Origin: Patescibacteria group bacterium
GTDB taxonomy: Bacteria; Patescibacteriota; Patescibacteriia; UBA2591; UBA6264
Direction: 5' to 3'
Length of the DNA stretch: 64,000 nt
Assembly: GCA_028713575.1 (NCBI GenBank)
Contig: JAQTOB010000004.1
Coordinates: forward strand, 5,250 to 69,249
Shown here: one piece after another, positions 4,440 to 62,100 of the stretch
Layout: the number at the start of each line of letters is the position of its first letter
Numbering within the stretch: position 1 is the first letter of the stretch
Position numbers and translations under genes: made by a program
Notes under the pieces: generated by a model
The model's input: only the letters and a program-made list of their open reading frames with translations
Database searches by the model: none
Told to the model about the DNA's origin: nothing

Positions 4440-4960
4440 CTTTTGTCAATACCCTGTAAAAATCCACCCATAATAGTACACATCCTGTGCAAGTCCACCC
4501 ATAGTATTACACCTTAGTTTTAACAAACTCATTTACGAGATTATCTACGAGGCGAGACCTCGTAGATCGTAGATTTTGATCATTACATCCTGGGGTCTGA
4601 CCCCATAAACATTCCTTCTAAAACCCTTATCAACAAAGGATTATATGACAAAAATTTCAATTTGGTGTGATTTTGATTAAATTTTTTTATCTACGAGGCG
4701 AGACCTCGTAGGAGGCGTATCTACGAGGCGAGACCTCGTAGATTGTAAATTTTTTATGGGGCTTGGGGTCTGACCCCCTGGGGTCTGGGGTCTGACCCCA
4801 TAAACATTCCTTCTAAAACCCTTATCAACAAAGGATTATATGACAAAAATTTCAATTTGGTGTGATTTTGATTAAATTTTTTTATCTACGAGGTTATCTA
4901 CGAGGCGAGACCTCGTAGATTGTACCTCGTAGATTGTAAATTTTTTAAAGAATGTTAAAA
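4440..4960. repeat. Repeat-rich intergenic region. It holds two copies of the MITE-like element (ggggtctgacccc...tttcaatttggtgtgattttgatt) and four copies of the hairpin tctacgagg-cgaga-cctcgtaga.
   Basis: Direct reading of the sequence. The hairpins are at about 4544-4566, 4689-4711, 4719-4742 and 4898-4920. The element cores begin at 4592 and 4765. Confidence 0.8.
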
Positions 4961-15455: not shown

Positions 15456-17145
15456 ATTTTAATAAAGAATTATCTTGACCGGAAAGAACGATAAAAATTG
15501 ATTCTTTCAGCTGATTGGTTAAAATTTTGAAGACTTTGTTCGTTATTTCGTTATTTAGGTCAGCATAAATAGCGTCCACGATTATTAACAAAGGCTTTTT
15601 TATCAGGCAATAAGCGGCCTGCAAAGAAAAAAGTTCCGTTAAATTCATTTTCATTGATTGAAAATCATGACCCATGAATTTGCTTAATGACATAATAAAA
15701 TTAAATTCTTTAAAGGGAGAAAGTGTTTGAAATGTTTTTTCAACATCTAGGGGCGTAATGTCTTCTTTATTTTTTCCTGTTAAAATTTCACCGATTTTTT
15801 TTTCCGTTGACAAATCGTTTTTGATAAAATAAGCGGGAAAAGAGGCTTGCTGCCAATGTTTGTAAAAAAATCTTTTACCATTGATTTTTACTATCCAGCT
15901 GGAAATATTGAATTGACCTTGACCGGAAAAAATAAGACCTAACTGATTTTTATTTGGATTTTTCCCAAAAATGAGAATTTTTTCACTTTTTTTGAATTCA
16001 AATTTTAGATGATGCGAATATCCGTCTGATTTTATTAATTTTGTTTTTTTTGCATTAAAGGAAATGGTTTGGAAATTTTTGAAATTGATAAATCGGCGCT
16101 TATTGGTTTTAGATTTAGGAACAGAGAGGATTAGCCCCAGCTTGGTAGGCAATGAATAAAATCCGATTTGTAAACTGGTGTAGAGTAAGCGAGTGAGATA
16201 AAAGATAATGATGCCAGAAAGAAATAGATTGCCAATTTCTATTTGCAGAAAAAAAGAAGGAAAATATATTTGCAAAATATAAAATATTCCGGCCAAAAGA
16301 ATTAAAAGAGCGAAAATTACCCGTGGTCCGAAATTGAGCCAAAGATTTCGGCGGATGCGAAAATAAGTGTCAATTTTTACTAAATCATCAAGTTTTTTCA
16401 AGCTTTTTTCTTCCAAGCGATGGCTTTGAATAAAGGGCAATTCATAAAGGTCGGTTACAATATTTTTGATTATTTCCGAATACAAAGTGGTTTCCTTGGT
16501 AATGTAGTTTTTTGCAATGAAATAGCCAATAACTCCAATGGCGATGTTTATAGGAATGAAGGCAAGAACAATGATTAAAAGTTTTGTGTTATAGAAAAAA
16601 GTGATGGAGATTAGTCCTAAAATATAAAGAATCCAACGCATTGAACCAATAAGGCTTTTTTCAACCCCCATTTGTAGCAAAGGAAGATGATATGATATTT
16701 TGGCAATTAAAGAGGCCTTGTTTTGACTTTTTGTTTTGAAAAAGGGACGATGCAGGAAGATTTTAAACCAACCCCTTCTCAAATCGTTTAATAAATAAAC
16801 AATTAGGGTTTTTTCTATTTTTAAACCAATAAAAGAACAAACAAGATAAATCATTACTCCGGCGGAGAGAATAAAAAAAACGATTGGCATTTTTTTGCGG
16901 ATTAAAAGAGCGCTGAATTGGGAAATAAAACTGTGGCTAAACAAAGACAAAATAACTTCTAAAATAACCAGAAAGAAAATAAGCAAAATCATGATTTTTA
17001 CTTCTTTTTTGTGTTTTTTTATAAAACGCAAAAGGTATTGGAAATGAAAATTTTCCAATTTCAGTTGATGGATGTTTTTTTTAATTTTTTCCCTTTGTTG
17101 ATACAAAGAGATCTGATAGTTTTTTTCTTCCATGATGGACCTCAA
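15409..17145 (-). CDS. ABC-exporter-like membrane protein (N-terminal 6-TM domain plus C-terminal NBD-like domain) with all catalytic motifs degenerate (pseudo-ATPase)
   Basis: The TMD carries an ABC_membrane-like LLNDLRRGWFKIFL region. In the NBD-like part the Walker A position reads ILIFGKNPNKNQL (no GxxGxGKS/T). The signature position reads FSLQAAY instead of LSGGQ. The Walker B position reads LLIIVDAIYADLN, so the catalytic E is replaced by A. Confidence 0.55.
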   Translation of the reverse strand: MRSIMEEKNYQISLYQQREKIKKNIHQLKLENFHFQYLLRFIKKHKKEVKIMILLIFFLVILEVILSLFSHSFISQFSALLIRKKMPIVFFILSAGVMIYLVCSFIGLKIEKTLIVYLLNDLRRGWFKIFLHRPFFKTKSQNKASLIAKISYHLPLLQMGVEKSLIGSMRWILYILGLISITFFYNTKLLIIVLAFIPINIAIGVIGYFIAKNYITKETTLYSEIIKNIVTDLYELPFIQSHRLEEKSLKKLDDLVKIDTYFRIRRNLWLNFGPRVIFALLILLAGIFYILQIYFPSFFLQIEIGNLFLSGIIIFYLTRLLYTSLQIGFYSLPTKLGLILSVPKSKTNKRRFINFKNFQTISFNAKKTKLIKSDGYSHHLKFEFKKSEKILIFGKNPNKNQLGLIFSGQGQFNISSWIVKINGKRFFYKHWQQASFPAYFIKNDLSTEKKIGEILTGKNKEDITPLDVEKTFQTLSPFKEFNFIMSLSKFMGHDFQSMKMNLTELFSLQAAYCLIKKPLLIIVDAIYADLNNEITNKVFKILTNQLKESIFIVLSGQDNSLLKYDKKYFLFQKGVEKI

Positions 17146-18319
17146 GATAATATTTATATAAAGAAGGGATTTTAATATTTTTCAAATCCTTTTTTAGTTT
17201 TTTTTGTAATCGGGGAGAATAAGAACCGTAAAAATATTTAGTAATGATGCGGAAAAAAGTTTCAGACAAATTTTTAATTTGTTGTTCGTCATTAACTAAG
17301 ATTTTTTGGCTGATAATTTGCAATAATTGGTTATTTAAAGAATTCTCTTTTTTATAAAGAAGTTGGGAAAAATGTTTCATTTTATTTTTTGGCTTAAAAG
17401 AAAGAAGTGACGTCCGCCAATAACTTATGGTTTTTTTAACAAATGAGTCCTCTAAACTAATTAAACGGTCATGGAAACAATAGCCTAAAAAATTAAATTT
17501 TTCTTTTCCATTTATCAATCTGGTTTTTTCTTTTTTAATTTCTAATTTTAATTCTTTAAGGTGTTGATATAAATATTTTTCAATTTCTTTAAGTTTTTTT
17601 AGACTTGGGTCAAAGGCGATTAAATCGTCGCCGATGCGACGATAAAGGCAAATTTTTGGCCCCAAGTATTTGTCTAGGTCGTCCAAATAAAGATTAGTAA
17701 AAAGGGCGATTAAAGGCACGCCTTGAATAACGCCGATTTTTGGCTGATAAATTTTTTTATCCTTATAAACCGCATTTTTAATGAAAAGTTTAAGGATTTC
17801 CATCAGCGGTTTTTCAGAAATAGTTTTTTCAAGTTTGGTTATTAAAATATCTTGGTCAATGTAATCGGAATAATTTTTAAGGTCGGCAATCAGAATAAAA
17901 TCTTTATCATAATAACGTTGATAGCGTCGCGCCACGCTACGACTGGCGTAAAAACTGCTATGAGAAGAACGATAAGAGAATAGATAAGGCGAATAAAGAT
18001 TTTCAAAAATTGGCTCTAAAACCCGATAAATAGCTTGAGCTTTAATTCGGGCTCTAACTGAATAAACATATATGTCTCTTAAAGAACCGTCTTTTTTTGG
18101 AATGTAATGGCAAATAGCTGGCGCCAAAGGAGTAATTTCAATTAATTCTTTCCTCGCTTTTTGGCAGAATTCTTCTGCCTGAGATTTAACGTCGTTTAGG
18201 CCAAGTCCTTCAATGCCGACGTATCTTGCCGTTAAGGATTTTTGGTCAAATTTTTTAGCCAAATCCAAATAGGCCTGCCGAATGTTTTTAATGTCAATTA
18301 TTTTTTCAAAAAGTTTCAT
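17081..18319 (-). CDS. Reverse transcriptase (group II intron / retron-like RT motifs 0-7 plus a roughly 130-aa C-terminal extension) with an unusual IGDD motif C
   Basis: Motif 0 is RYVGIEGLG and motif 1 is IPKKDGSLRDI. Motif 2 is SVRARIKAQAIYRVLEPIFE and motif 3 is FSYRSSHSSFYA. Motif 4 is ILIADLKNYSDYID and motif 5 is GVIQGVPLIALFTNLYLDDLD. Motif C is LYRRIGDDLIAF and motif 7 is LKLEIKKEKTRLIN...FNFLGYCF. The gene overlaps the downstream gene by 65 nt. Confidence 0.8.
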   Translation of the reverse strand: MKLFEKIIDIKNIRQAYLDLAKKFDQKSLTARYVGIEGLGLNDVKSQAEEFCQKARKELIEITPLAPAICHYIPKKDGSLRDIYVYSVRARIKAQAIYRVLEPIFENLYSPYLFSYRSSHSSFYASRSVARRYQRYYDKDFILIADLKNYSDYIDQDILITKLEKTISEKPLMEILKLFIKNAVYKDKKIYQPKIGVIQGVPLIALFTNLYLDDLDKYLGPKICLYRRIGDDLIAFDPSLKKLKEIEKYLYQHLKELKLEIKKEKTRLINGKEKFNFLGYCFHDRLISLEDSFVKKTISYWRTSLLSFKPKNKMKHFSQLLYKKENSLNNQLLQIISQKILVNDEQQIKNLSETFFRIITKYFYGSYSPRLQKKLKKDLKNIKIPSLYKYYLEVHHGRKKLSDLFVSTKGKN

Positions 18320-21700: not shown

Positions 21701-22450
21701 TATTTAACTATCGGACACCATGAACAATTTGATTTGGGCGAAGATGATAAAATGACTATTGAAGCTTGGGTTTATTTAAATGCCGCGCCGACTAATTATC
21801 AGATGATTTTAAGCAAGGGCTATAATCCGGGCTATGAATTTAGAATCAATACTGGTCGTTATGCGCAATTTTTAAATGTGGCAACCGGCTATAGTTCTTA
21901 TGTTCTTACTTCCACTAATGCTTTGTCTTTAAATGAATGGTATCATTTGGCCGTGACTAAAAGTAATATGACTGGTGAAACAAAAATTTATATCAATGGC
22001 GTTTTGGATAAAACCGGATTTTTAGATACTTTTGATTATAGTAATGAAAATGAAATAAGAATCGGCCGTGATGCTGATGACGGATGCGCCAACGGCAATG
22101 CCTATTTTAAGGGTTATTTGGACAATTTGGCCGTTTATAACGCGATTAAAGACGAAGAACAAATGAGAATTGATTACGAAGCAGGCAATTGCGGTGCTGA
22201 TAATTGCCGAATAAGTGAAGTTTGCAATCTTTGTCATGTTCAGGGCGTTGACGACGGAATTTGCGGCAGAATATCAAGCGATGCCAGTGTTTGTTGTTGT
22301 TCCTTTACTGATTCGCGCATTGTTCCTTTTGTTGATTATCACTATGTTTTTACTGTCACCAGCGGACAAGGCGAATCAACACCCGGTCCGGAACCGCCCT
22401 TAACCAGTCAAACGATTTGTTTTCCGCCAACAGAAGAAGAAGAAAATTAA
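18728..22450 (+). CDS. Large membrane-anchored surface protein with multiple LamG-like (concanavalin A-like lectin/glucanase) domains and FN3-like segments
   Basis: An N-terminal TM helix follows MSLFSKF. The block AHWKMNE...NGNHG...A..DG.DDY... ...EAWV... recurs three times and is LamG_3-like. The ORF track starts at 18665, but the later ATG at 18728 immediately precedes the TM helix. Confidence 0.6.
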   Translation: MSLFSKFNFKNFLIVTGSFFLLFILILTGIFLFNRKMNIQAAETHKLRGWGWSENVGWISMNCFNDFDNDGVFENCCPGGTECTSENTPYTQCCPYDLSADYGVNYDTISKELSGYAWAENIGWICFGKTCDGATPDGNNAWACVGNGSCLNGVCSCVGDQGEDFLDTDKACTESNHLKAHWKMNDIVNGKIIDETTVNGGTLMPAVAPPALTKGKFENALKFDGIEDYVEMADSPNLSMTGNLTIEAWVKRNEVGGEQTIVAKWDESQNKKSYRLWFSSDNRLNFTVSNNTNLATAQQKNGICVGSNRKQCYNGLETNEQSCSFHADCPIGYYCHEKLCDNDSNCDQDLHEICQNAPITDIKKWHHVVGKYVADIPGTDVDEKALLLFIDGSPAFVNITGTIPNALIDDSQNFYIGAKKGTTVMNTYFKGNIDNVSVWSCQNLGKILGRHKKEIWNDAKMEVDGWAKIVSLNDGGWLKLQGLTRDSRVWGSYLNNYNTFYTFSGYMANRYVKEPTNSSGLMAYWKMNEPFWNDSINEVIDSSINNNHGTAKNGAKIINNGALHNAGDFDGENDCLLIPDSPTLDIANSITLSIWILNEGPGSGNESSSKGMIISKNYAGNNGVYNLHLNYYTSGNKIEFEVYDLNDTRHYLESTTVVEDKKWYHVVAIYDYGSGKAKIYINGEKEENEGTWGGYNLKTTSLATSIGCSTSADNTPLKMFFSGLIDDVMIYNRVLSETEIKAIYNSSIPFCAGWEDHEHEYSGPPAPLDFDNLSLDNTLLCGQMSLQWESSDWAESYTYERCDNVSETECASCSYVEKSVLDDSCELTGCYLVDNDLIPNTGYCYKVQAHNETGSTYNSEGPVWKSTLFCAPTFGVIDNSVCGQLSLQWESIEEADGNNIYRSLTNNGCYDVYSPTCELIGHVAEGMNYYVNNDELKDLIAHWKMNESSWSGATDEVNDSSGNGNHGVASTGTTTTGNGKFDYAGVFDGNDYLTIGHHEQFDLGEDDKMTIEAWVYLNAAPTNYQMILSKGYNPGYEFRINTGRYAQFLNVATGYSSYVLTSTNALSLNEWYHLAVTKSNMTGETKIYINGVLDKTGFLDTFDYSNENEIRIGRDADDGCANGNAYFKGYLDNLAVYNAIKDEEQMRIDYEAGNCGADNCRISEVCNLCHVQGVDDGICGRISSDASVCCCSFTDSRIVPFVDYHYVFTVTSGQGESTPGPEPPLTSQTICFPPTEEEEN

Positions 22451-22680
22451 TAGAAAAATAAAGGAATTGATGATGCTCCTGATGAGGTGGTTCCGATGAC
22501 ACTTAAAGATACTTAGGAGGATACTTGGGAGCAAGGCTCCGAAGTAAGTCTCATAAGTACGGAAAAAACAAGACCGGAGATAGAAGTCACACGCAATAGC
22601 CATGGATTAAATGGATTAAAAAAGTTTTATAAAGGGTTCTATATTCTATATTATATTATATTTTTCATTTTTCAGATTTT

Positions 22681-22710
22681 CTTTTTGGCAGGTGCTCACC
22701 TGCCAAAAAG
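22681..22710. repeat. REP-like palindrome ctttttggcaggtg-ct-cacctgccaaaaag immediately upstream of the Y1 transposase gene
   Basis: Perfect 14-bp inverted repeat. Half-site echoes (gacctgccaaaaaa, acccgccaaaaac) follow. Confidence 0.75.
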
Positions 22711-22752
22711 AAAATGACCTGCCAAAAAAGACCAAACCCGCCAAAAACCAAA

Positions 22753-23412
22753 ATGTCTCTTAAAAATTCACTTAAAATTTACATTAAAGATGGAATCTAT
22801 CACATCTATAACCGGGGCATAGAAAAAAGAAACATCTTTTTAGATGAACAGGATTATAAAGTATTTTTATATTATTTGAAAAGTTATTTAACACCAGTTG
22901 GTCAACAAGAAAAACCGCCCTATGGTATTGATAGAAATGTTTTAGATTTCACCCTTTATAAACAAATCCGGCTTTTTTGTTTTTGTTTAATGCCAAATCA
23001 TTTTCATTTAATGATTCAGCAATTAACTGAAAGGGCGATTATAGAATTTATGAAGCGTTTAACTAACGCCTATGTAAGATATTTTAATGAAAAGTATGAT
23101 CGCAAAAGTATAGGTCCGCTTTTCCAGGGCAAATATAAAGCTGTGTTAATAAAAAAAGAACAACAATTCTTATATTTGCCGTATTATATCCATTTTCACA
23201 ATCCGGAAGGATTATATAGAAACAAGAGAGATGCTGAGTTAATCAAAAAAATACAAAATTATCCTTGGTCAAGTTATGCCGATTATTTAGGTAAACGTGA
23301 CACCAAATGGATTTATAAAAAAGGAATAATGGAGCAATTTATGGAAACAGAAGAAATAAAGCCGGAGACGGAAACTACGCGCAAAATTTTAGGTTCAACG
23401 GTTATAGATTAA
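22753..23412 (+). CDS. Y1 HUH transposase (IS200/IS605 TnpA-like; REP-associated tyrosine transposase-like)
   Basis: YHIYNRG is present. The HUH motif is CLMPNHFHLM. The candidate catalytic Tyr lies in LFQGKYKAVLI. The gene is flanked on both sides by related palindromes. Confidence 0.65.
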   Translation: MSLKNSLKIYIKDGIYHIYNRGIEKRNIFLDEQDYKVFLYYLKSYLTPVGQQEKPPYGIDRNVLDFTLYKQIRLFCFCLMPNHFHLMIQQLTERAIIEFMKRLTNAYVRYFNEKYDRKSIGPLFQGKYKAVLIKKEQQFLYLPYYIHFHNPEGLYRNKRDAELIKKIQNYPWSSYADYLGKRDTKWIYKKGIMEQFMETEEIKPETETTRKILGSTVID

Positions 23413-23425
23413 AGGGAATGTGTAT

Positions 23426-23447
23426 TTGGAAGGTGAGCACCTTCCAA
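23426..23447. repeat. REP-like palindrome ttggaaggtg-ag-caccttccaa immediately downstream of the Y1 transposase
   Basis: Perfect 10-bp inverted repeat of the same ttggNaggtg family as 22681-22710. Confidence 0.75.
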
Positions 23448-23478
23448 GAAATATCTTCCAAGAAATAAGAAATAATTT

Positions 23479-25515
23479 ATGGGTCAACAAGAGGCAAAAC
23501 AAAGAATTGAAAAATTAAAAACGGAACTGAATCATCACCGTTATTTTTATCATGTTTTAGATAAACAGGAAATTTCTGACGCGGCCTGGGATTCTTTAAA
23601 ACACGAATTAGCCAGTTTAGAAGAGCAATACCCGGAATTTATCACTTCTGATTCTCCCACGCAAAGAGTCGGTGGCGAGCCCTTAGAAAAGTTCGTTAAA
23701 ATTAAACACCCCGAACCCATGTTGTCTATTGAAGATGTTTTTAATTTTAAGGAATTGCAAGAATGGGAAGATTATATGAAAGATTATCTTTTAAAAGAAA
23801 TGGGGGTTTTCCCAAAATTCACTTATTTTTGCGAACGAAAAATTGACGGCGTGGACATTGTTTTAATTTATAAAAAAGGAGTTTTATTTAACGCCGCCAC
23901 GCGAGGTAATGGCTTAATTGGCGAAGATGTCACTCAAAACATTAAAACAATAGAAGCTATTCCTTTGCGTTTAGAAAAAGAAATTGATTTGGTGGTCAGA
24001 GGAGAAATTTTTTTACAAAAAAAAGATTTTCAGAAACTTAATCGTGAACGAGAAAAAAGAGGCCTACCGACCTATGCCAATCCTCGTAATATTGCCGCTG
24101 GTTCAATTCGTCAATTAGACCCAAAAATCACGGCTCAACGTTTTCTTGATTGCTATATTTTTGAAATTATCACGGATTTGGGACAGAAAACCCATCAGCA
24201 AGTTCATGAAATTTTAAAACAACTGGGCTTTAAGACAGATTCTCAAACTAAACTTTGTTTTGATTTAAAACAAGTCCAGAAATATTATTTATTTTTAAAT
24301 CAGAAACGGCTAGAAAATTCTTTTGATTATGACGGCATGGTGGTAATGTTAAATGATATTGTTTTACAAAAAAAATTGTCTTTTATTGGCAAATCGCCGC
24401 GTTGGATGCGCGCTTATAAATTTCCTGGAGAACAGACAACAACGATTATAGAAGATATTTTTATTCAGGTTGGCCGAACTGGCGTTTTGACCCCGGTGGC
24501 AAAATTAAAGCCGGTTTCATTGATGGGAACTACGGTTTCTCGCGCTACTTTACATAATCAGGACGAGATAGAGCGATTGGACGCGCGTCTTGGTGACAGC
24601 GTAATTATTGAGAAGGCCGGCGATATTATTCCGGCTGTGGTTAAAGTTTTGAAAAATTTAAGAACCGGGAAAGAAAAAAAATTTCAGATGCCGACAAAAT
24701 GTCCGATTTGCAACGGCCCGATAAGAAAAAAAGAAGGCGAAGTCGCTTATTATTGTCAGAATAAAAATTGTTTTGCCAGCCAGCAAAGAAAAATTAGTTA
24801 TTTTGTTTCTAAAAGATGTTTTGACATTGAAGGTTTGGGCCCAAAAATTATAGGCAAACTTTTAGAAGCGGGATTAATATCAGATGCAGCCGATTTGTTT
24901 AAATTGCAAAAAGGAGATATTATTTTATTAGAAAGTCCGTCTGATATCAAACCGAAAGTTTTAGTGCGGGGGTTCGCGGAAAAATCGGCGGATAATTTAA
25001 TCAAGGCCATTGATAAAAGTAAAGAGATAGAATTGTCGCGCTTTATTCAGGCCCTGGGTATTCGTCACATTGGCGAACAAATGGCTAATGATTTGGCCGA
25101 GTATTTTAAAAGTTTTGAAAAATTTTCTCAAACCAAAAAAGAAGAATTGCTGACCTTATCGGATATTGGTCCGATTGCCAGTCAAAGCATTGTTATGTGG
25201 CTTAAAAACAAAGAAAATCAAAAATTTTTGGGAAAATTAAAAAAATATGGCGTGATTATAAAGAATCATTATTTATTAAAAGCAAAACAAATTTTAAAAG
25301 GAAAATCTTTTGTTTTAACCGGCGTTTTAACATCAATGTCGCGGGAAAAAGCCAAAGAAAAAATTCAAAGTCTTGGCGGCAGGGTTTTAAACGCGGTCAG
25401 CACAAAAACCGATTTTCTTGTTAGTGGAAAAAATCCTGGAAGTAAATATAATACAGCGAAGAGCCTAAGAATTAACATAATCAACGAGCAGGAATTTTTA
25501 AAGATGGTTAGATAG
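23479..25515 (+). CDS. ligA: NAD-dependent DNA ligase
   Basis: The adenylation site is KIDGVDIV (KxDG). The Zn finger is CPICNGPIRKKEGEVAYYCQNKNC. HhH and C-terminal BRCT regions are present. Confidence 0.95.
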   Translation: MGQQEAKQRIEKLKTELNHHRYFYHVLDKQEISDAAWDSLKHELASLEEQYPEFITSDSPTQRVGGEPLEKFVKIKHPEPMLSIEDVFNFKELQEWEDYMKDYLLKEMGVFPKFTYFCERKIDGVDIVLIYKKGVLFNAATRGNGLIGEDVTQNIKTIEAIPLRLEKEIDLVVRGEIFLQKKDFQKLNREREKRGLPTYANPRNIAAGSIRQLDPKITAQRFLDCYIFEIITDLGQKTHQQVHEILKQLGFKTDSQTKLCFDLKQVQKYYLFLNQKRLENSFDYDGMVVMLNDIVLQKKLSFIGKSPRWMRAYKFPGEQTTTIIEDIFIQVGRTGVLTPVAKLKPVSLMGTTVSRATLHNQDEIERLDARLGDSVIIEKAGDIIPAVVKVLKNLRTGKEKKFQMPTKCPICNGPIRKKEGEVAYYCQNKNCFASQQRKISYFVSKRCFDIEGLGPKIIGKLLEAGLISDAADLFKLQKGDIILLESPSDIKPKVLVRGFAEKSADNLIKAIDKSKEIELSRFIQALGIRHIGEQMANDLAEYFKSFEKFSQTKKEELLTLSDIGPIASQSIVMWLKNKENQKFLGKLKKYGVIIKNHYLLKAKQILKGKSFVLTGVLTSMSREKAKEKIQSLGGRVLNAVSTKTDFLVSGKNPGSKYNTAKSLRINIINEQEFLKMVR

Positions 25516-26232: not shown

Positions 26233-27666
26233 ATGAATTTAAATCAATTAACAATTTTATCGGTTCATCAGGGTTTAAAAAAGAAAGAATTTTCCAGTCA
26301 AGAATTGACTAAAGATTGCTTAACAAAAATAAAAAAAAGCAATAAAGAAATTAATGCTTTTATTACTGTTTTAGAAAAACAAGCTTTAAAACAAGCCGAG
26401 GAAATTGATAAAAAAATTAAAATTCAAGGCGTGGATAATTTTTTAACTGGTATTCCCCTGGGAATTAAAGACAATATTTTAATTCAAGATGTTGTTTGTA
26501 CTGCTGGTTCAAAAATTTTAGAAAATTATCAGGCTATCTATGATGCCACGGTAATTAAAAAATTAAAAAAAGCTGGAGCGATTTTTTTAGGCAAAACCAA
26601 TCTTGACGAATTCGCCATGGGTAGCTCTACTGAATCGTCTGCCTTTGGTCCGACCAAAAATCCTATTAATTTATCTTATATTCCCGGTGGTTCTTCTGGC
26701 GGTTCTGCCGCCGCAGTCGCGGCTAATATGTGTTTGGCTGCCCTTGGTTCTGATACTGGCGGTTCTGTCCGTCAACCGGCGGGATTTTGTGGCGTCGTTG
26801 GACTAAAACCAACCTATGGGCGGGTTTCTCGCTATGGCTTGATTGCCATGGCTTCTTCTCTTGATCAAATCGGACCATTGACCAAAAACATTGAAGACGC
26901 GGAAATTTTATTTAAAACAATTAAGGGCAAAGATGATTTTGATGCCACTAGCGTTGAGGTAAAAGATGAAGACCCAGGGAAAATGAAAACAAAAAAAATA
27001 AAAATTGGCCTACCTAAAGAATATTTTATCCAAGGGCTTGACTCGCAGATAAAGGAAGTCATCAATAACTTAATTAAAAAATGGCAGAAGCAAGACGCTG
27101 AATTTATAGAGGTTAGTTTGCCCCACGCATCGCTCGCTTTGGCTTGCTATTATATTATTATGCCCGCGGAAGTTTCTTCTAATTTGGCTCGTTATGACGG
27201 CATTAAATACGGATTTTCCACCAATGGGGAAAATAAAAATTTATTAGATGTTTATTTAGATTCTCGAACCACGGGTTTTGGCGAAGAAGTCAAACGCCGA
27301 ATTATGCTCGGCGCCTATACTTTGTCTGCCGGCTATTATCAGGATTATTATTTACAGGCGCAGAAAGTAAGAACTTTAATCAAAAAAGATTTTGAAAAAC
27401 TTTTTCAAGAAAAAGATATAGATTGTTTATTAACCCCAATTAGCCCAACTTTGCCCTGGAAATTGGGAGAAAAAATAAACAACCCTTTAAGTATGTATTT
27501 GGCGGATGTTTATACCGTTTCCGCCAATCTGGCTGGTTTGCCGGCGCTTTCATTGCCTATTGGTAAAATTGATGATTGGCCGGTCAATGGGCAATTAATC
27601 GGTAATTATTTTCAGGAAAGCAAAATTCTGCATCTCGGAAAAATGATTGAAAAATTAGGACTTTAA
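26233..27666 (+). CDS. gatA: Glu-tRNA(Gln) amidotransferase subunit A (amidase signature family)
   Basis: The amidase signature is GGSSGGSAAAVAANMCLAALGSDTGGSVRQPAGFCGVVGLKPTYGRVSRYG. Confidence 0.95.
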   Translation: MNLNQLTILSVHQGLKKKEFSSQELTKDCLTKIKKSNKEINAFITVLEKQALKQAEEIDKKIKIQGVDNFLTGIPLGIKDNILIQDVVCTAGSKILENYQAIYDATVIKKLKKAGAIFLGKTNLDEFAMGSSTESSAFGPTKNPINLSYIPGGSSGGSAAAVAANMCLAALGSDTGGSVRQPAGFCGVVGLKPTYGRVSRYGLIAMASSLDQIGPLTKNIEDAEILFKTIKGKDDFDATSVEVKDEDPGKMKTKKIKIGLPKEYFIQGLDSQIKEVINNLIKKWQKQDAEFIEVSLPHASLALACYYIIMPAEVSSNLARYDGIKYGFSTNGENKNLLDVYLDSRTTGFGEEVKRRIMLGAYTLSAGYYQDYYLQAQKVRTLIKKDFEKLFQEKDIDCLLTPISPTLPWKLGEKINNPLSMYLADVYTVSANLAGLPALSLPIGKIDDWPVNGQLIGNYFQESKILHLGKMIEKLGL

Positions 27667-27718
27667 GGTTTTTGGAGACCAGGTCTCCAAAAACCTTTTG
27701 GAGACCAGGTCTCCAAAA
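27667..27718. repeat. Two adjacent REP-like palindromes (ggtttttggagacc-a-ggtctccaaaaacc and ttttggagacc-a-ggtctccaaaa) directly after the gatA stop codon
   Basis: Perfect inverted repeats. The same family clusters around the second Y1 transposase gene at 58931-59843. Confidence 0.8.
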
Positions 27719-28208
27719 AAGGTATTCAAAAAATGGCTGCTAAAATTCTGTATCTCGGAAAAATGCTGGAAAAAATATAGAAAAACGTACGGAACAAAGC
27801 TTTGTCGTTTTTTATCTATGCGCAAGTCCACCCATAGCATTACACCTGTCTGTTTGAGTAGACGAGAGGTTAAAAGGATAGCGGTCGCCGCCTTGGTATC
27901 GGCTACTCTGCCTACGGCGGGGCCTCGCACGTTGTTGACGTTTATCTCGACCACTCCAACGACAACGGGGGCTTTCGGCTCGCGGTCGTGTTTAAAATCA
28001 AGTCCTGACCTTTGATTCCTAATTTCTAATTGATTTGGAGGACTGAGGACTGAAAACTGAAGACTAATTTTAGGGAGCATTAATGATAGATGGAGATGGC
28101 AATACTTTTTATTTCATTTATCCACATCCTTTGAATGAGCGGGTATGTTGACAAAAATTTTGAAGACTATAAACTAAATAATATTAATTTGTAATTTATT
28201 TTATTCTT

Positions 28209-29244: not shown

Positions 29245-29465
29245 TTTGGGGGCTGGGGTCTGACCCCCTAAACAGACCCCCCAAAACCATTATTAGATTT
29301 GCAAAGTAGAACGATTTTTCTAATTTGGTGCGATTTTGTTGAATTTATTATATCATACCACTACAACTTCTTGCAGGTCAGACCTGCAAGAAGTCTCTGC
29401 AAGAAGTACTGCAAGAAGTAGGGCAAAAATTTTGATTTGGTGTAATTTTGACGGATTTTCATTTT
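29245..29465. repeat. MITE-like element copy (ggggctggggtctgaccccc...tttctaatttggtgcgattttgttgaattt) with an appended hairpin cttcttgcagg-tcaga-cctgcaagaag and half-site echoes
   Basis: Sequence similarity to the elements at 4592, 6455 and 37236. The hairpin is at 29367-29393. Confidence 0.7.
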
Positions 29466-52026: not shown

Positions 52027-52600
52027 AGTCCTCCTATTTTTGAGGGGGTCTTTTCTTTGTTTTGAGACTCGGTTTCCCGTTGGAAACCGAGTCTCTTCAC
52101 TTCTTGGTTGTTTTGAGACTCGGTTTCCCGTTGGAAACCGAGTCTCTTCACTTCTTGGCTTCCTGTTTAAAGTTCGGTTTCCCGCTTTGCTTCGTAGCGA
52201 GCTTTGCTCTGCTACTGGGGCTGGAAGCCGAACTTCTTTATTTTATAAAAAGCCACTTGGTCTTTAAAGTCCTCCTATTTTTGAGGGGGTCTTTTCTTTG
52301 TTTTGAGACTCGGTTTCCCGTTGGAAACCGAGTCTCTTCACTTCTTGGCTTTGATACTTTGGCGCAATCCCTGATTATGCCGGCTATGGCCGATTTAGCG
52401 CAATAAAGCTTCTATTATATATACACTTTGTTTTGAGACTCGGTTTCCCGTTGGAAACCGAGTCTCTTCACTTCTTGGCTTCCTGTTTAAAGTTCGGTTT
52501 CCCGCTTTGCTTCGTAGCGAGCTTTGCTCTGCTACTGGGGCTGGAAGCCGAACTTCTTTATTTTATAAAAAGCCACTTGGTCTTTAAAGCCTTTTTTATA
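52027..52600. repeat. Complex tandem repeat region built on a 32-nt perfect hairpin gagactcggtttcc-cgtt-ggaaaccgagtctc (4 copies) plus a twice-repeated 104-bp structured segment and duplicated leader tcctcctatttttgagggggtcttttctttg
   Basis: The hairpin copies are at 52064-52095, 52115-52146, 52305-52336 and 52435-52466. The 104-bp segment is at 52157-52260 and 52487-52590. Confidence 0.85.
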
Positions 52601-52689
52601 GGGAGGTTTGACCCCTTCCTCTTGTTATAAATATTATAAATGTTATAATAATTTTCTACTATTTTCGTAAAATTTTCGTATTTCGTAGC

Positions 52690-53220
52690 ATGTTCCACCT
52701 CAGAGAGAAAATCCTTTTTCATCAAATTAAAAACGGTGACGAACAGGCCTTCACCGTCTTTTATAATACCTATAAAGACAGAATTTATCGTTTTATTTAT
52801 TTTAAAGTTTCTGATCGTGAAAAAGTTTATGATTTGGTTTCCGAAGTTTTTATTAAAATATATGATTATATTAAAGAGGGGAATGACATTGATAATTTTC
52901 AAGCTTTTTTGTATAAAATCGCTCGTAATTTAGTAATAGATTTTTATCGCACTAAAAAAGAGGAAATTTCTTTAACTGATGCGCCGGAAACAGTTTCTCC
53001 TATCAATTTAGAAAAAGAAGTGGGAGATAAGGTTGCCGTGGAAAACGTCAAAAGATACCTTAATAAAATTAAACCAGAATACCGCGAAGCGGTTCATCTT
53101 CATTTTTTTGAAAATTTTTCTTTTTCCGAGATTGCGGATATTATCAATCAATCCGAAGGCAATGTTAGGATTAGGGTTTATCGCGGCATTAAGCAATTAA
53201 AAGAGGTTTTAAGGGGTTGA
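52690..53220 (+). CDS. RNA polymerase sigma factor, ECF (sigma-70 group 4) family
   Basis: Region 2 is FYNTYKDRIYRFIYFKVSD...DLVSEVFIKIY. Region 4 is FSFSEIADIINQSEGNVRIRVYRGIKQLK. Confidence 0.8.
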   Translation: MFHLREKILFHQIKNGDEQAFTVFYNTYKDRIYRFIYFKVSDREKVYDLVSEVFIKIYDYIKEGNDIDNFQAFLYKIARNLVIDFYRTKKEEISLTDAPETVSPINLEKEVGDKVAVENVKRYLNKIKPEYREAVHLHFFENFSFSEIADIINQSEGNVRIRVYRGIKQLKEVLRG

Positions 53221-53760
53221 ACCCCTTCTATATGTAGGGGTTCAACCCCCTCCCCAATAATCGCCATCATAAACTTTTTACACAGGAACTTTTTACACAT
53301 TTTTACACAGGACATTTTTACACAGGTTGAACCTGTGTAAATTTTCATTTGCATATTTCACAAAACAAATCCAAAATCCAAAACCCAAATTTTCATAATC
53401 ACTTGGGAACCGAGTTTCTAAAAAGCAAGAAAGCAAGAGATGGATTCTACGCTAGAAACTCGGTTTCCCGTTGGAAACCGAGTTTCCTTCTCCCCAATAA
53501 TCGCCATCATAAACTTTTTACACAGGAACTTTTTACACATTTTTATACAGCACATTTTTACACAGCACATTTTTATACATTTTTACACAGGTTGAACCTG
53601 TGTAAATTTTCATTTGCATATTTCACAAAACAAATCCAAAATCCAAAACCCAAATTTTCATAATCACTTGGGAACCGAGTTCCTAAAAAGACATTTTTAC
53701 ACAGGTTGAACCTGTGTAAATTTTCATTTGGCATTTAGTCATTTGATATTGATTTGACAT
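53213..53760. repeat. Repeat region downstream of the sigma gene. It has palindromes ggggttgaacccc and ggggttcaacccc, a roughly 200-bp direct repeat (two copies), and a compensatory variant of the 52-kb hairpin (gaaactcggtttcc-cgtt-ggaaaccgagtttc).
   Basis: Direct repeat copies at about 53246-53440 and 53490-53690. ttacacaggttgaacctgtgtaa palindromes occur at 53313-53341 and again in the second copy. The variant hairpin is at 53454-53485. Confidence 0.8.
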
Positions 53761-58930: not shown

Positions 58931-59293
58931 TCTTTGGAGACCAGGTCTCCAAAGATAGATATAACGTTTGACTGAAGCGCGTGTCCGCCTCTGGTGGACT
59001 AAAATCAGTCCATCTGGAATAATATAATAAAAATATTAGTTCCATCGCCAAAATCCCCTTAACAGGGGATTTTGGCTTTTAAAAGGGCGCAATACCTGCC
59101 TATCGGCAGGTTTTGGAGACCAGGTCTCCAAAAAAAGTCTCCAAAAAAATCTTGCGAGGTTTTTTAGTTTTAGAGACCAGTTTTTTGGAGACCTGGTCTC
59201 CAAAAAACCCTGCGAGGCCTTTTAGGGATTGTTTTTTTTAAATTAAAATATTATAATAATTGGAGACCTAATTTGGAGACCTGGTCTCCAAAT
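58931..59293. repeat. Cluster of at least 4 REP-like palindromes of the ttggagacc-N-ggtctccaa family (58931-58955, 59111-59133, 59181-59207, 59273-59293) plus half-site fragments, upstream of Y1 transposase paralog 2
   Basis: Perfect inverted repeats. Same family as 27667-27718. Confidence 0.85.
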
Positions 59294-60028
59294 TACTCCA
59301 AATTAAAAAATAGCCTTATGAGAAAAATTAAATTTGTTAATGATGAGTATTATCATATTTATAACCGTGGAGTAGATAAACGGATTATTTTTGAGGATAA
59401 AGATGATTTAAAAAGATTTTTCCAAAGTATGAAAGAGTTTAATGTTTTAGAGCCAATAGGTAGCATTTATGAAGCGGTTCGTTGTAAAACTTTTAGAGAA
59501 ACTTTTGGAGACCAAGTCTCCAAAAGTTTTACAAATAATGAAAGATTGGTTGATTTTATTTGTTACAATTTACTTCCCAATCATTATCATTTCATTTTAA
59601 AACAGTCAGTTGAAGATGGAATTAAGAAATTTATGCATAGACTCGGATTGGGTTACGCAATGTTTTTCAATCAAAAGTATAAGCGCAACGGTTCATTGTT
59701 CCAAGGACCGTTTAAGGCGATTCATATTGATTCCGAAGCTTATTTGCTTCACTTGAGCGCTTATATTAATTTGAATCATAGGGTTCATTCTAAATTTGAG
59801 GATTTTGGAGACCTTGAGGATTTTGGAGACCTGGTCTCCAAAAGATATAAATCAAGCTGGGAGGAATATTTGGGATTAAATCAAGAAAAATTTTGTCAAA
59901 AGGAAATTCTTTTAGACCAATTTGACACAATAAAAAGCTATAGAGAGTTTGCCGAAGAATCATTAAAAGGAATAAGAGAAAGAAAGGAAATAAAAAAGTT
60001 TCTTTTAGATGATCAAATAATTGGTTGA
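59273..60028 (+). CDS. Y1 HUH transposase paralog 2 (IS200/RAYT-like). It carries in-frame REP-palindrome insertions and a Phe at the position aligned with the catalytic Tyr of paralog 1.
   Basis: YHIYNRG is present and the HUH motif is LLPNHYHFIL. GPFKAI aligns with GKYKAV of paralog 1. REP copies are at 59501-59527 and 59821-59843 inside the ORF. The start may instead be the ATG at 59318. Confidence 0.55.
   Translation: METWSPNYSKLKNSLMRKIKFVNDEYYHIYNRGVDKRIIFEDKDDLKRFFQSMKEFNVLEPIGSIYEAVRCKTFRETFGDQVSKSFTNNERLVDFICYNLLPNHYHFILKQSVEDGIKKFMHRLGLGYAMFFNQKYKRNGSLFQGPFKAIHIDSEAYLLHLSAYINLNHRVHSKFEDFGDLEDFGDLVSKRYKSSWEEYLGLNQEKFCQKEILLDQFDTIKSYREFAEESLKGIRERKEIKKFLLDDQIIG

Positions 60029-62061: not shown

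Positions 62062-62100
<39 letters not shown>

What the first reader, a model, noticed from the sequence alone, without database searches (positions are those of the whole stretch)
22681..23447. Y1 HUH transposase flanked on both sides by cognate REP-like palindromes (a REP/RAYT-type unit)
The IS200-like tyrosine transposase gene (HUH = NHFHLM, candidate catalytic Y in GKYKAV) is bracketed by ctttttggcaggtg-ct-cacctgccaaaaag upstream and ttggaaggtg-ag-caccttccaa downstream. Both share the half-site ttggNaggtg. Single-copy Y1 transposases bounded by their own hairpin substrates are the signature of RAYT-type domesticated transposases. These systems propagate REP sequences in trans.
Basis: partly seen in the sequence, partly recalled or inferred. 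Interest (0 to 1): 0.6.

Follow-up and report, generated by a model that had tools for sequence, protein, structure and literature searches.

The report
RAYT-like nuclease gene with private palindromes
A Patescibacteria chromosome carries a fixed, single-copy relative of the REP-associated tyrosine transposases, bracketed by its own DNA palindromes; this is a known kind of unit (REPtron/TIRtron) found in a phylum where I found no published description of it.

Summary
A 219-aa Y1 HUH gene (22753-23412; the true start is not 22714) lies between TTGGCAGGTG-CT-CACCTGCCAA (perfect 19-bp arms, 22676-22715) and TTGGAAGGTG-AG-CACCTTCCAA (23426-23447). Chance expects none.

Its motifs (NHFH, FQ, YIHxNP, SS), its only NCBIfam hit (the RAYT model, below cut-off) and its best fold match (E. 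coli TnpA-REP, 4ER8) place it in the RAYT class, closest to subclass 2.1/TIRYT, not IS200. No tnpB is adjacent.

Four species keep the gene between the same two neighbours. It is as conserved as LigA (69-70% vs 64-66%), yet the palindromes differ in each species. Among 76 homologous loci, 32 have an upstream palindrome, 26 a downstream one and 23 an in-frame internal one.

This particular palindrome has no other copy in the 64 kb, so spreading in trans is not shown for it. A 35%-identical paralogue at 59318-60028 has its own palindrome (TTGGAGACC-W-GGTCTCCAA), with copies 31 kb away and inside its own coding sequence.

Near-identical strains differ by gain or loss of single palindrome arms.

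The catalytic tyrosine is Y145, not the Y in GKYKAV.

Verdict: partly supported; a new member of a known kind.

The parts
22676..22715 (.). Upstream palindrome T1u: ATTTTCTTTTTGGCAGGTG-CT-CACCTGCCAAAAAGAAAAT. It has 19-nt perfect arms and ends 38 nt before the start codon, in the probable 5' leader.
   Evidence: Folds as ssDNA at -19.6 kcal/mol, z -5.8. An orthologous palindrome sits at the same distance (-77) in L097, with both arms changed.
22718..22751 (+). Two degenerate direct copies of the right arm (CCTGCCAAAAAAG, CCCGCCAAAAACC). Their copy number varies between strains.
   Evidence: Strain L001 carries an extra 17-nt arm unit and an extra 13-nt unit here.
22753..23412 (+). Y1 HUH gene, 219 aa plus stop. 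HUH is H83-F84-H85 (22999-23007). The predicted catalytic Tyr is Y145 in YIHFHNP (23185-23187). The SS tail motif is S173/S174.
   Evidence: AF2 model with pLDDT 87.7. Top Foldseek hit is 4ER8.
23426..23447 (.). Downstream palindrome T1d: TTGGAAGGTG-AG-CACCTTCCAA. It starts 14 nt after the stop codon and ends 32 nt before the ligA start. Its central dinucleotide is the reverse complement of that in T1u.
   Evidence: Folds as ssDNA at about -9 kcal/mol, z about -3.
23448..23475 (+). Tandem partial copy of the right arm plus tail (TCTTCCAAGAAATA, AGAAATAA).
   Evidence: Strain L003 carries an extra 22-nt left-arm unit just upstream of T1d.
59318..60028 (+). Paralogous Y1 gene (236 aa, 35% identical, HUH = NHYH). 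It carries two in-frame copies of its own palindrome at 59499-59529 and 59821-59843, encoding ..FGDQVSK.. and ..FGDLVSK...
58931..59295 (.). Cluster of four extragenic T2 palindromes (TTTGGAGACC-W-GGTCTCCAAA) at 58931, 59111, 59180 and 59269, with partial arm repeats, immediately upstream of the paralogue.
   Evidence: TTGGAGACC occurs 17 times against 0.31 expected.
27665..27718 (.). Two tandem T2 palindromes directly after the gatA stop codon, 31 kb from the paralogue. This is the dispersed, extragenic (REP-like) copy.
   Evidence: Strains L001 and L087 carry an extra 17-nt left-arm unit here.
29366..29420 (.). Palindrome T3: ACTTCTTGCAGGTC-A-GACCTGCAAGAAGT, followed by two tandem right-arm units. 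It shares the GCAGGT core with T1u and may be a diverged relative.
   Evidence: One arm unit fewer in strain L001.

Best explanation
The locus is a chromosomally fixed REPtron/TIRtron-type unit. It consists of a single-copy, vertically inherited Y1 HUH single-strand DNA nuclease of the RAYT (TnpA-REP, class 2) lineage, closest to subclass 2.1/TIRYT, together with its own cognate palindromes just outside both ends of the gene.

Inferred mechanism: when the region is single-stranded (at a replication fork or during transcription), each palindrome folds into a hairpin. The enzyme binds the hairpin, cuts nearby through H83/H85-bound metal and Y145, and rejoins the DNA. The conserved inner core of the arms (family consensus RAGGTY-N-RACCTY; here CAGGTG/AAGGTG) would be the common recognition element. 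The variable outer arm would give each paralogue its own specificity.

The visible products of this activity, or of hairpin-induced replication slippage, are gains and losses of single arms next to the palindromes. In some family members the products also include extra copies inside the gene's own loops and elsewhere in the genome.

For this gene the palindromes are private to the locus as far as can be seen. For the paralogue 36 kb away they are dispersed.

Shown here: the anatomy, the class assignment, the family-wide gene-palindrome association, the synteny and the strain-level arm variation. Inferred: binding, cleavage and any copying in trans.
For: 1. Protein class. Motifs NH[FY]H, FQ, Y[IV]HxNP and SS are invariant or nearly so in the alignment. 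They match class 2/subclass 2.1 of Quentin et al. 2018 (PMC6006769). All 25 aligned members hit only NCBIfam REP_Tyr_transpos and no IS200 model. The AF2 model (pLDDT 87.7) has 4ER8, TnpA-REP bound to a REP hairpin, as its best PDB match (E 1e-5).

2. Gene-palindrome link. Among 76 homologous loci, 32 have an upstream palindrome and 26 a downstream one (arms at least 10 nt, within 150 nt). 22 have both, and 19 share an 8-mer between the two sides. The background expectation is 0.02 per 150 nt. Arm similarity rises with protein identity (Mantel r 0.17, 1 of 2000 permutations). Two paralogues in this window, and two in another genome, each have a different palindrome.

3. Fixed gene. The order Laminin_G_3 - Y1 - ligA is kept in four species (window, L097, L099, L100). 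Y1 identity is 69-70% and LigA identity 64-66%. The palindrome is at the same offset (-77) in L097, with both arms changed.

4. Not viral. There is 1 relative in 2.9 million viral contigs, against at least 591 in GTDB genomes.

5. Ongoing dynamics. Between strains 99.3% identical over 20.6 kb, all four indels of 13 nt or more are single arm units, at T1 (two), T2 and T3.
Against: No other copy of the T1 palindrome exists in 64 kb. Only 5 of 76 homologous loci show related palindromes more than 400 nt away within +/-10 kb. So the defining RAYT behaviour, mass dispersal of REPs, is not seen for this gene or for most of the family.

There is no GT[AG]G guide tetranucleotide. The near-perfect palindromes with 1-2 nt spacers would suit a dimeric double-strand DNA binder as well as a hairpin binder.

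The sequence profile against PDB chains finds only ISDra2 TnpA (E 6e-4) and not 4ER8. The RAYT equivalog score is far below its cut-off.

Arm gains and losses could be plain replication slippage. No biochemical evidence exists.
Confidence: 0.72

Rival explanations
1. The unit is an autonomous IS200-type insertion sequence. The two palindromes are the left- and right-end hairpins, and the 770-bp unit excises and inserts as a single-stranded circle.
For: The unit is compact: a gene plus subterminal hairpins of related sequence on both sides. The palindromes are mostly private to the unit across the family. The sequence profile against PDB finds ISDra2 TnpA. Several diverged paralogues occur per genome.
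Against: The gene sits in the same chromosomal slot in four species and is conserved as well as LigA. There is no second near-identical copy in 64 kb; the paralogue is only 35% identical. The Y motif is the class 2 form Y...NP, not the IS200 form Y...Q. No IS200 NCBIfam hit was found. No tnpB is present. The protein is 219 aa with an SS tail rather than a core of about 150 aa. The family is virtually absent from viral contigs.
Confidence: 0.08
2. The palindromes are cis-regulatory elements only. They would act as operators, or as 5'-leader and 3' RNA hairpins through which the Y1 protein or another factor controls expression of this gene and ligA. No DNA cleavage or copying would be involved.
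For: The upstream palindrome lies between a weak promoter-like site (22616-22654) and the start codon. The perfect dyads with 1-2 nt spacers resemble dimer-binding operators. The palindromes are private to the gene in most loci. The position is conserved at -77 in an orthologue.
Against: This does not explain the same palindrome occurring in frame inside the coding sequence at two fixed loops in 23 of 76 loci. It does not explain dispersed extragenic copies of the paralogue's palindrome 31 kb away. It does not explain the retention of invariant HUH and Tyr catalytic residues, nor the arm-unit copy-number changes between strains. The promoter-like sites are not more frequent than in shuffled sequence.
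Confidence: 0.13
3. The palindromes are passive passengers. They would be generic hairpin-forming repeats of this genome, moved by some other agent or generated by slippage, that merely accumulate in tolerant spots such as the flanks of a dispensable gene.
For: The window holds at least seven palindrome families in intergenic DNA, and most are not next to a Y1 gene. The arm-unit changes are compatible with slippage.
Against: There is a roughly 20-fold enrichment at both ends of Y1 genes across 76 genomes. Palindrome sequence is specific to each paralogue. Arms co-diverge with the protein. An RAGGT core is conserved family-wide.
Confidence: 0.05

Closest known systems
TIRtron / TIRYT (Di Nocera et al. 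2013, PMC3733652). Equivalent to TnpA-Y1 subclass 2.1 (Quentin et al. 2018, PMC6006769) and to RAYT Group 1 (Bertels et al. 2017, PMC5581495).
   Same: The motif set is the same: NH[YF]H, FQ, Y[IV]HLNP and an SS tail, in a protein of about 220-240 aa. The gene is flanked by inverted repeats that may be self-complementary. Several paralogues occur per genome, each with its own repeats, and only some of these form dispersed families. This matches gene 1 compared with gene 2 here.
   Different: Here each flank holds a complete, near-perfect palindrome with an AGGT core, not the GGGGWSAS-type terminal repeat. No C-terminal DnaA-like HTH was detected by Pfam. Copies also sit in frame inside the gene. 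The host phylum is Patescibacteria. Quentin et al. found no REP-like structures next to subclass 2.1 genes.
REPtron: the E. coli-type RAYT (TnpA-REP, PDB 4ER8; subclasses 2.2 and 2.5) flanked by REPs.
   Same: It is a single-copy, vertically inherited Y1 HUH gene bracketed by cognate hairpin-forming repeats. It has the class 2 Y...NP motif. It is the best structural match. The paralogue's palindrome is extragenic and dispersed, like a REP.
   Different: There is no GT[AG]G foot. The stems are perfect, without bulges. The score is 33.5 bits against a cut-off of 80 for the NCBIfam equivalog. No dispersed copies of this gene's palindrome occur in 64 kb.
Subclass 2.4 RAYTs (Cyanobacteria/Bacteroidetes) with REPs inserted in frame in the tnpA-REP gene (PMC6006769).
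   Same: Copies of the cognate palindrome lie inside the enzyme's own coding sequence without breaking the frame.
   Different: [quoted passage not shown] Here they lie at two fixed loops that bracket the catalytic core: before HUH (about residues 50-76) and just after Y...NP (about residues 148-162). Gene 1 itself has none.
IS200/IS605 TnpA (IS608, ISDra2; subclass 1.1).
   Same: Same fold and same HUH/Tyr chemistry, with subterminal hairpins at both ends of the gene.
   Different: IS200/IS605 TnpA has the Y...Q motif, a core of about 150 aa only, many near-identical copies and often tnpB. None of these is seen here.

Membership tests
RAYT / TnpA-REP (class 2 TnpA-Y1) | HUH motif plus the class-specific Tyr motif Y---NP | tested here: met
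   NHFH is invariant. The family consensus is YIHxNP, with Y145 and N150 invariant, matching the published motif table. Gene 1 and its close orthologues have one extra residue (YIHFHNP).
RAYT / TnpA-REP (class 2 TnpA-Y1) | Closer to RAYT than to IS200 transposase by profile and by fold | tested here: met
   All 25 of 25 members hit only NF047646 REP_Tyr_transpos and no IS200 model. The top Foldseek hit is 4ER8. Caveats: the profile against PDB sequences finds only ISDra2, and the score is below the equivalog cut-off.
RAYT / TnpA-REP (class 2 TnpA-Y1) | Low copy number, vertical inheritance, fixed chromosomal position | tested here: met
   The same neighbours are found in four species. Y1 identity is 69-70% against 64-66% for LigA. 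There are only two Y1 genes in 64 kb, and they are 35% identical.
RAYT / TnpA-REP (class 2 TnpA-Y1) | Gene flanked by its cognate palindromes (REPtron arrangement) | tested here: met
RAYT / TnpA-REP (class 2 TnpA-Y1) | The same palindrome is dispersed in many extragenic copies through the genome | tested here: inconclusive
   There are zero other T1 copies in 64 kb. A metagenome scan found only the same locus. The rest of the genome could not be read. The feature is met for the paralogue's T2 palindrome.
RAYT / TnpA-REP (class 2 TnpA-Y1) | GT[AG]G guide tetranucleotide at the 5' foot of the hairpin (canonical REP) | tested here: not met
   The arms start TTGG/TTTGG, with no GTAG or GTGG at the foot.
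NCBIfam NF047646 REP_Tyr_transpos (E. coli RayT equivalog) | Score at or above the curated cut-off of 80 bits | tested here: not met
   33.5 bits.
TIRYT / subclass 2.1 / RAYT Group 1 | Motifs NH[YF]H, FQ, Y[IV]HLNP and an SS tail; length about 238 aa | tested here: met
   The alignment consensus reads LMPNHFH, LFQG, RYIHxNP and YSSY, with lengths of 205-250 aa, matching Table 1 of PMC6006769.
TIRYT / subclass 2.1 / RAYT Group 1 | C-terminal HTH (Bac_DnaA_C, HTH_23 or HTH_28) and GGGGWSAS-type terminal inverted repeats | tested here: not met
   There is no such Pfam hit at E <= 1. The flanking repeats are AGGT-cored palindromes.
IS200/IS605 insertion sequence | Y---Q motif, near-identical multiple copies, often a tnpB partner | tested here: not met

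The most novel reading that the evidence does not exclude
Patescibacteria harbour a very large, vertically inherited clade of subclass-2.1-like Y1 nucleases; published surveys report subclass 2.1 as not REP-associated. In this clade each paralogue keeps its own fast-evolving, AGGT-cored perfect palindrome at up to four fixed positions: the 5' leader, two in-frame loops that bracket the catalytic core, and the 3' flank. The palindromes usually do not spread through the genome. This would point to an enzyme that acts mainly in cis on its own locus, through self-processing, autoregulation or local arm shuffling, rather than to a REP disperser. It would also make these small genomes a natural system for reading RAYT activity from strain-level arm gains and losses.
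Probability: 0.3. Interest if true: 0.6.

Novelty: new member of a known kind. Interest (0 to 1): 0.38.

Why it matters
What RAYT-class nucleases actually do, and how REPs are copied, is still unsettled.

This locus extends the gene-plus-cognate-palindrome arrangement to Patescibacteria. It does so for a protein subclass that published surveys describe as lacking REPs.

One window holds two paralogues with different palindromes, one private and one dispersed.

Near-identical strains differ almost only by single palindrome arms. That gives a concrete, testable read-out of activity.

For annotation, these genes, now labelled 'transposase', are better treated as fixed chromosomal genes than as insertion sequences.

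The palindromes also coincide with ends of contigs in other assemblies.

Tried and rejected
1. Genome-wide count of the T1 palindrome. The metagenome scan returned 13 loci, of which only one (L087) is the same locus. The rest are unrelated chance palindromes with no Y1 gene. The source metagenome is evidently not in that collection, so the count is uninformative.

2. Fixed relative orientation of the upstream and downstream palindromes, read from the central base. The result was 7 same against 9 inverted, so there is no rule.

3. Terminator reading. No terminator-like site lies in 22400-23600.

4. Promoter reading. The promoter-like matches are not above the shuffled expectation.

5. Extra Y1 pseudogenes near the other palindrome clusters. 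tblastn with 25 family members found only the two genes.

6. Exact-protein look-up of the paralogue. It is not on record with the ATG start, because other assemblies call it with other starts. The region was recovered through its neighbour gene instead.

7. Profile search against PDB sequences did not reach 4ER8, even at E 10. The fold search did.

8. Rfam. Only two tRNAs were found in the window.

9. A link between the nearby reverse transcriptase and the Laminin_G_3 protein as a diversity-generating retroelement. No template/variable repeat pair was found.

10. The arms contain type IIS restriction sites (GGTCTC, CACCTGC). I treated this as coincidence and did not pursue it.

Full report
OBSERVATION. 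The reported features are present. The sequence ctttttggcaggtg-ct-cacctgccaaaaag lies at 22681-22710 and is the core of a longer perfect palindrome with 19-nt arms (22676-22715). The sequence ttggaaggtg-ag-caccttccaa lies at 23426-23447. The shared pattern TTGGNAGGTGNNCACCTNCCAA matches only these two sites in 64 kb, even with two mismatches allowed; shuffles give 0.00. As single-stranded DNA the two regions fold at -19.6 kcal/mol (z -5.8) and about -9 kcal/mol (z about -3). The ORF between them hits Pfam Y1_Tnp above its cut-off.

Two details need correcting. The gene starts at the ATG at 22753 and encodes 219 aa. That product is identical over its full length to the database protein 'MAG: transposase [Patescibacteria group bacterium]', from GCA_028711035.1 and a 98.8-kb JGI contig. 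The stretch 22714-22752 is leader sequence made of degenerate copies of the right arm. The proposed catalytic tyrosine (GKYKAV, Y128) is phenylalanine in the paralogue, whereas Y145 in YIHFHNP is invariant in the family alignment.

WHAT THE PROTEIN IS. An alignment of 25 family members has the conserved blocks YHIYNRG, LMPNH[FY]H, LFQGxYKA, RYIHxNP and YSSY. In the classification of Quentin et al. 2018 (PMC6006769), Y---NP is the signature of class 2, the TnpA-REP/RAYT class, and Y---Q is the signature of IS200. The combination NH[YF]H, FQ, Y[IV]HLNP, an SS tail and about 238 aa defines subclass 2.1. That subclass corresponds to Bertels' Group 1 and largely to Di Nocera's TIRYTs. All 25 members hit only the NCBIfam RAYT model NF047646 and no IS200 model, but at 33 bits against a cut-off of 80. 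A confident AlphaFold model (pLDDT 87.7) has E. coli TnpA-REP bound to a REP hairpin (4ER8) as its best PDB match (E 1e-5). ISDra2 and IS608 TnpA follow. A sequence profile against PDB chains reaches only ISDra2 (E 6e-4). The neighbours are a 1261-aa Laminin_G_3 protein and LigA. There is no tnpB.

THE PALINDROME ASSOCIATION IS FAMILY-WIDE. The family is very large: 4965 proteins at E <= 1e-5 and at least 591 loci in GTDB species genomes. Most of the 80 loci kept carry Patescibacteria-type record titles, though many are labelled otherwise (for example 'uncultured Gammaproteobacteria'). I analysed 76 loci that have enough flank. Of these, 32 have a palindrome (arms at least 10 nt, at most 1 mismatch, spacer at most 4) within 150 nt upstream, and 26 within 150 nt downstream. 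22 have both, and in 19 the two sides share an 8-mer. The background in the same loci is 0.02 per 150 nt. Each genome has its own sequence, but the inner arm is conserved as RAGGTY-N-RACCTY. Gene 1 (CAGGTG, AAGGTG) fits this. Arm similarity increases with protein identity (Mantel r 0.17; 1 of 2000 permutations reach it). Paralogues in one genome carry different palindromes (L007 against L009; gene 1 against gene 2 here). In 23 of 76 loci the same palindrome also lies in frame inside the gene. The internal copies cluster at two places: about nt 150-230, before HUH, and about nt 445-485, just after Y...NP. At protein level they appear as twin peptides such as EVRPxxRSDL. Only 5 of 76 loci show related palindromes more than 400 nt away within +/-10 kb.

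THE GENE IS FIXED, NOT MOBILE. Proteins 69-70% identical to gene 1 lie in the same slot, Laminin_G_3 - Y1 - ligA, in three other species (L097, L099, L100). LigA in these loci is 64-66% identical and the Laminin_G_3 protein 43%. The Y1 gene is therefore conserved like a housekeeping gene. The palindromes are not. L097 has CTTGCAGGGT-GTTG-ACCCTGCAAG at the same offset (-77), with both arms changed in concert. L099 has TGACAGGGTC-G-GACCCTGTCA upstream, internally and downstream. Only one relative was found in 2.9 million viral contigs. Plasmid hits are 25-29% identical 'transposases' of other phyla.

THE REST OF THE WINDOW. A second Y1 gene lies at 59318-60028 (236 aa, 35% identical, Pfam Y1_Tnp). 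It is associated with a different palindrome, TTTGGAGACC-W-GGTCTCCAAA. Four copies lie just upstream (58931, 59111, 59180, 59269). Two lie in frame inside the gene (59499, 59821; FGDQVSK and FGDLVSK). A tandem pair lies directly after the gatA stop codon at 27665-27718, 31 kb away. The half-site TTGGAGACC occurs 17 times against 0.31 expected. This paralogue therefore shows the REP-like dispersal that gene 1 does not. The window holds further intergenic palindrome families, listed under things noticed. CAGGT..ACCTG-cored palindromes occur 5 times against 0.045 expected. One of them, at 29366-29394, shares the GCAGGT core with gene 1's upstream palindrome and might be a diverged relative. No other Y1 gene or fragment is present.

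STRAIN-LEVEL DYNAMICS. All these palindromes are followed or preceded by partial direct copies of the adjacent arm. The window and a JGI contig are 99.3% identical over 20.6 kb. All four indels of 13 nt or more between them are single arm units: two at the upstream T1 palindrome, one at the gatA T2 pair and one at T3. A Logan assembly with the identical protein has an extra 22-nt left-arm unit at the downstream palindrome. The NCBI MAG has a 6-nt in-frame insertion next to an internal palindrome of gene 2. Contigs of other assemblies end inside these clusters.

HOW IT MOST LIKELY WORKS. I commit to the following explanation at about 0.7. The locus is a domesticated RAYT-class Y1 nuclease with cognate hairpins at its gene borders. 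On single-stranded DNA the palindromes fold. The enzyme recognises the conserved AGGT-cored inner stem together with a paralogue-specific outer stem. It then cuts and rejoins using HUH-bound metal and Y145. The observed arm gains and losses and the in-frame and dispersed copies are the products of this activity, possibly helped by hairpin-induced slippage. Binding, cleavage and copying are inferred, not shown.

Three rivals remain. An autonomous IS200-type element (0.08) conflicts with the synteny, the copy number and the motifs. A purely regulatory role for the dyads (0.13) does not explain the internal and dispersed copies or the retained catalytic residues. Passive hairpin repeats unrelated to the enzyme (0.05) conflict with the roughly 20-fold enrichment, the paralogue specificity and the co-divergence.

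COMPARISON AND NOVELTY. Every single feature has a precedent. REPtrons show flanking cognate REPs. TIRtrons show flanking, sometimes self-complementary repeats that may or may not form a dispersed family, with several differently decorated paralogues per genome. Subclass 2.4 shows in-frame REP copies inside the gene. What differs here is the following: the host phylum, for which I found no paper linking RAYTs or REPs to Patescibacteria/CPR in the library searched; the subclass, reported as lacking REP-like structures; the AGGT-cored perfect dyads without a GT[AG]G foot; and the two fixed internal sites that bracket the catalytic core. Some database copies are already annotated 'REP element-mobilizing transposase RayT' by COG transfer.

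I rate it a new member of a known kind, of moderate interest (0.38). The unit type is right. Propagation in trans is not shown for this palindrome, which is unique in the sequence available. The catalytic tyrosine and the ORF start were misassigned.

Noticed in passing
window 59318-60028, with 58931-59295: A second Y1 HUH gene (35% identical to gene 1) has its own palindrome family, TTTGGAGACC-W-GGTCTCCAAA. Four copies lie upstream. Two more lie in frame inside the coding sequence (59499-59529 and 59821-59843), encoding FGDQVSK and FGDLVSK.
   Followed up: yes
window 27618-27781: Two tandem T2 palindromes sit directly after the gatA stop codon. They are followed by a diverged duplicate of the last 13 or so codons of gatA (KILHLGKMIEKLGL* against KILYLGKMLEKI*). 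It looks as if the palindrome insertion came with a replacement or duplication of the gene's 3' end. Strains differ by one 17-nt arm unit here.
   Followed up: partly
window 29366-29420: The palindrome ACTTCTTGCAGGTC-A-GACCTGCAAGAAGT is followed by two tandem right-arm units (CTGCAAGAAGT). There is one unit fewer in a 99.3%-identical strain, and a contig of another metagenome ends exactly here. It shares the GCAGGT core with gene 1's upstream palindrome.
   Followed up: partly
window 52064-53486: Five copies of GAGACTCGGTTTCC-CGTT-GGAAACCGAGTCTC are embedded in longer repeated units of about 180-250 nt. These units also contain a second long hairpin (aagttcggtttccc...ggaagccgaactt). All are intergenic, around an ECF sigma factor gene. 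No Rfam match was found.
   Followed up: no
window 53270-53720: Three copies of TTTACACAGGTT-G-AACCTGTGTAAA, each preceded by an array of 3-5 partial left-arm copies (TTTTTACACAGG). They lie between the sigma factor gene and a DUF5667 gene. The architecture (dyad plus arm repeats) is the same as at the Y1 genes.
   Followed up: no
window 4540-4930; L100 1517-1570 and 2462-2515: Four copies of ATCTACGAGG-CGAGA-CCTCGTAGAT, plus GGGGTC-T-GACCCC dyads, lie in one intergenic region. The same palindrome flanks the orthologous Y1 gene on both sides in another species from the same sample (L100). Contigs of two other assemblies start inside this cluster.
   Followed up: partly
alignment A1; loci L011, L040, L043, L055, L056, L063, L071, L075 and others: Across the family, the in-frame internal palindromes occupy two fixed loops that bracket the HUH-to-Tyr catalytic core. 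They give twin peptides in one protein, for example EVRPRWRSDL and EVRPGSRSDL in P0082. The family-wide inner-arm consensus is RAGGTY-N-RACCTY.
   Followed up: partly
window 17081-18319 (- strand): A reverse transcriptase gene (RVT_1, E 5e-19) lies two genes upstream of the Laminin_G_3 protein. No template/variable repeat pair was found in 13-23 kb and there is no group II intron Rfam hit, so its type is unresolved.
   Followed up: partly
L004 and L023 (genome contigs): Two of the best homologous loci, each with palindromes next to the gene (L004 on both sides, L023 upstream only), come from MAGs labelled Bathyarchaeia and Nanoarchaeia. This is either mis-binning or presence of this class 2 family in archaea, which published surveys do not report.
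   Followed up: no
window 62066-62097: A (GA)n microsatellite of about 16 units. It varies by 4 nt between assemblies, and several Logan contigs break here.
   Followed up: no
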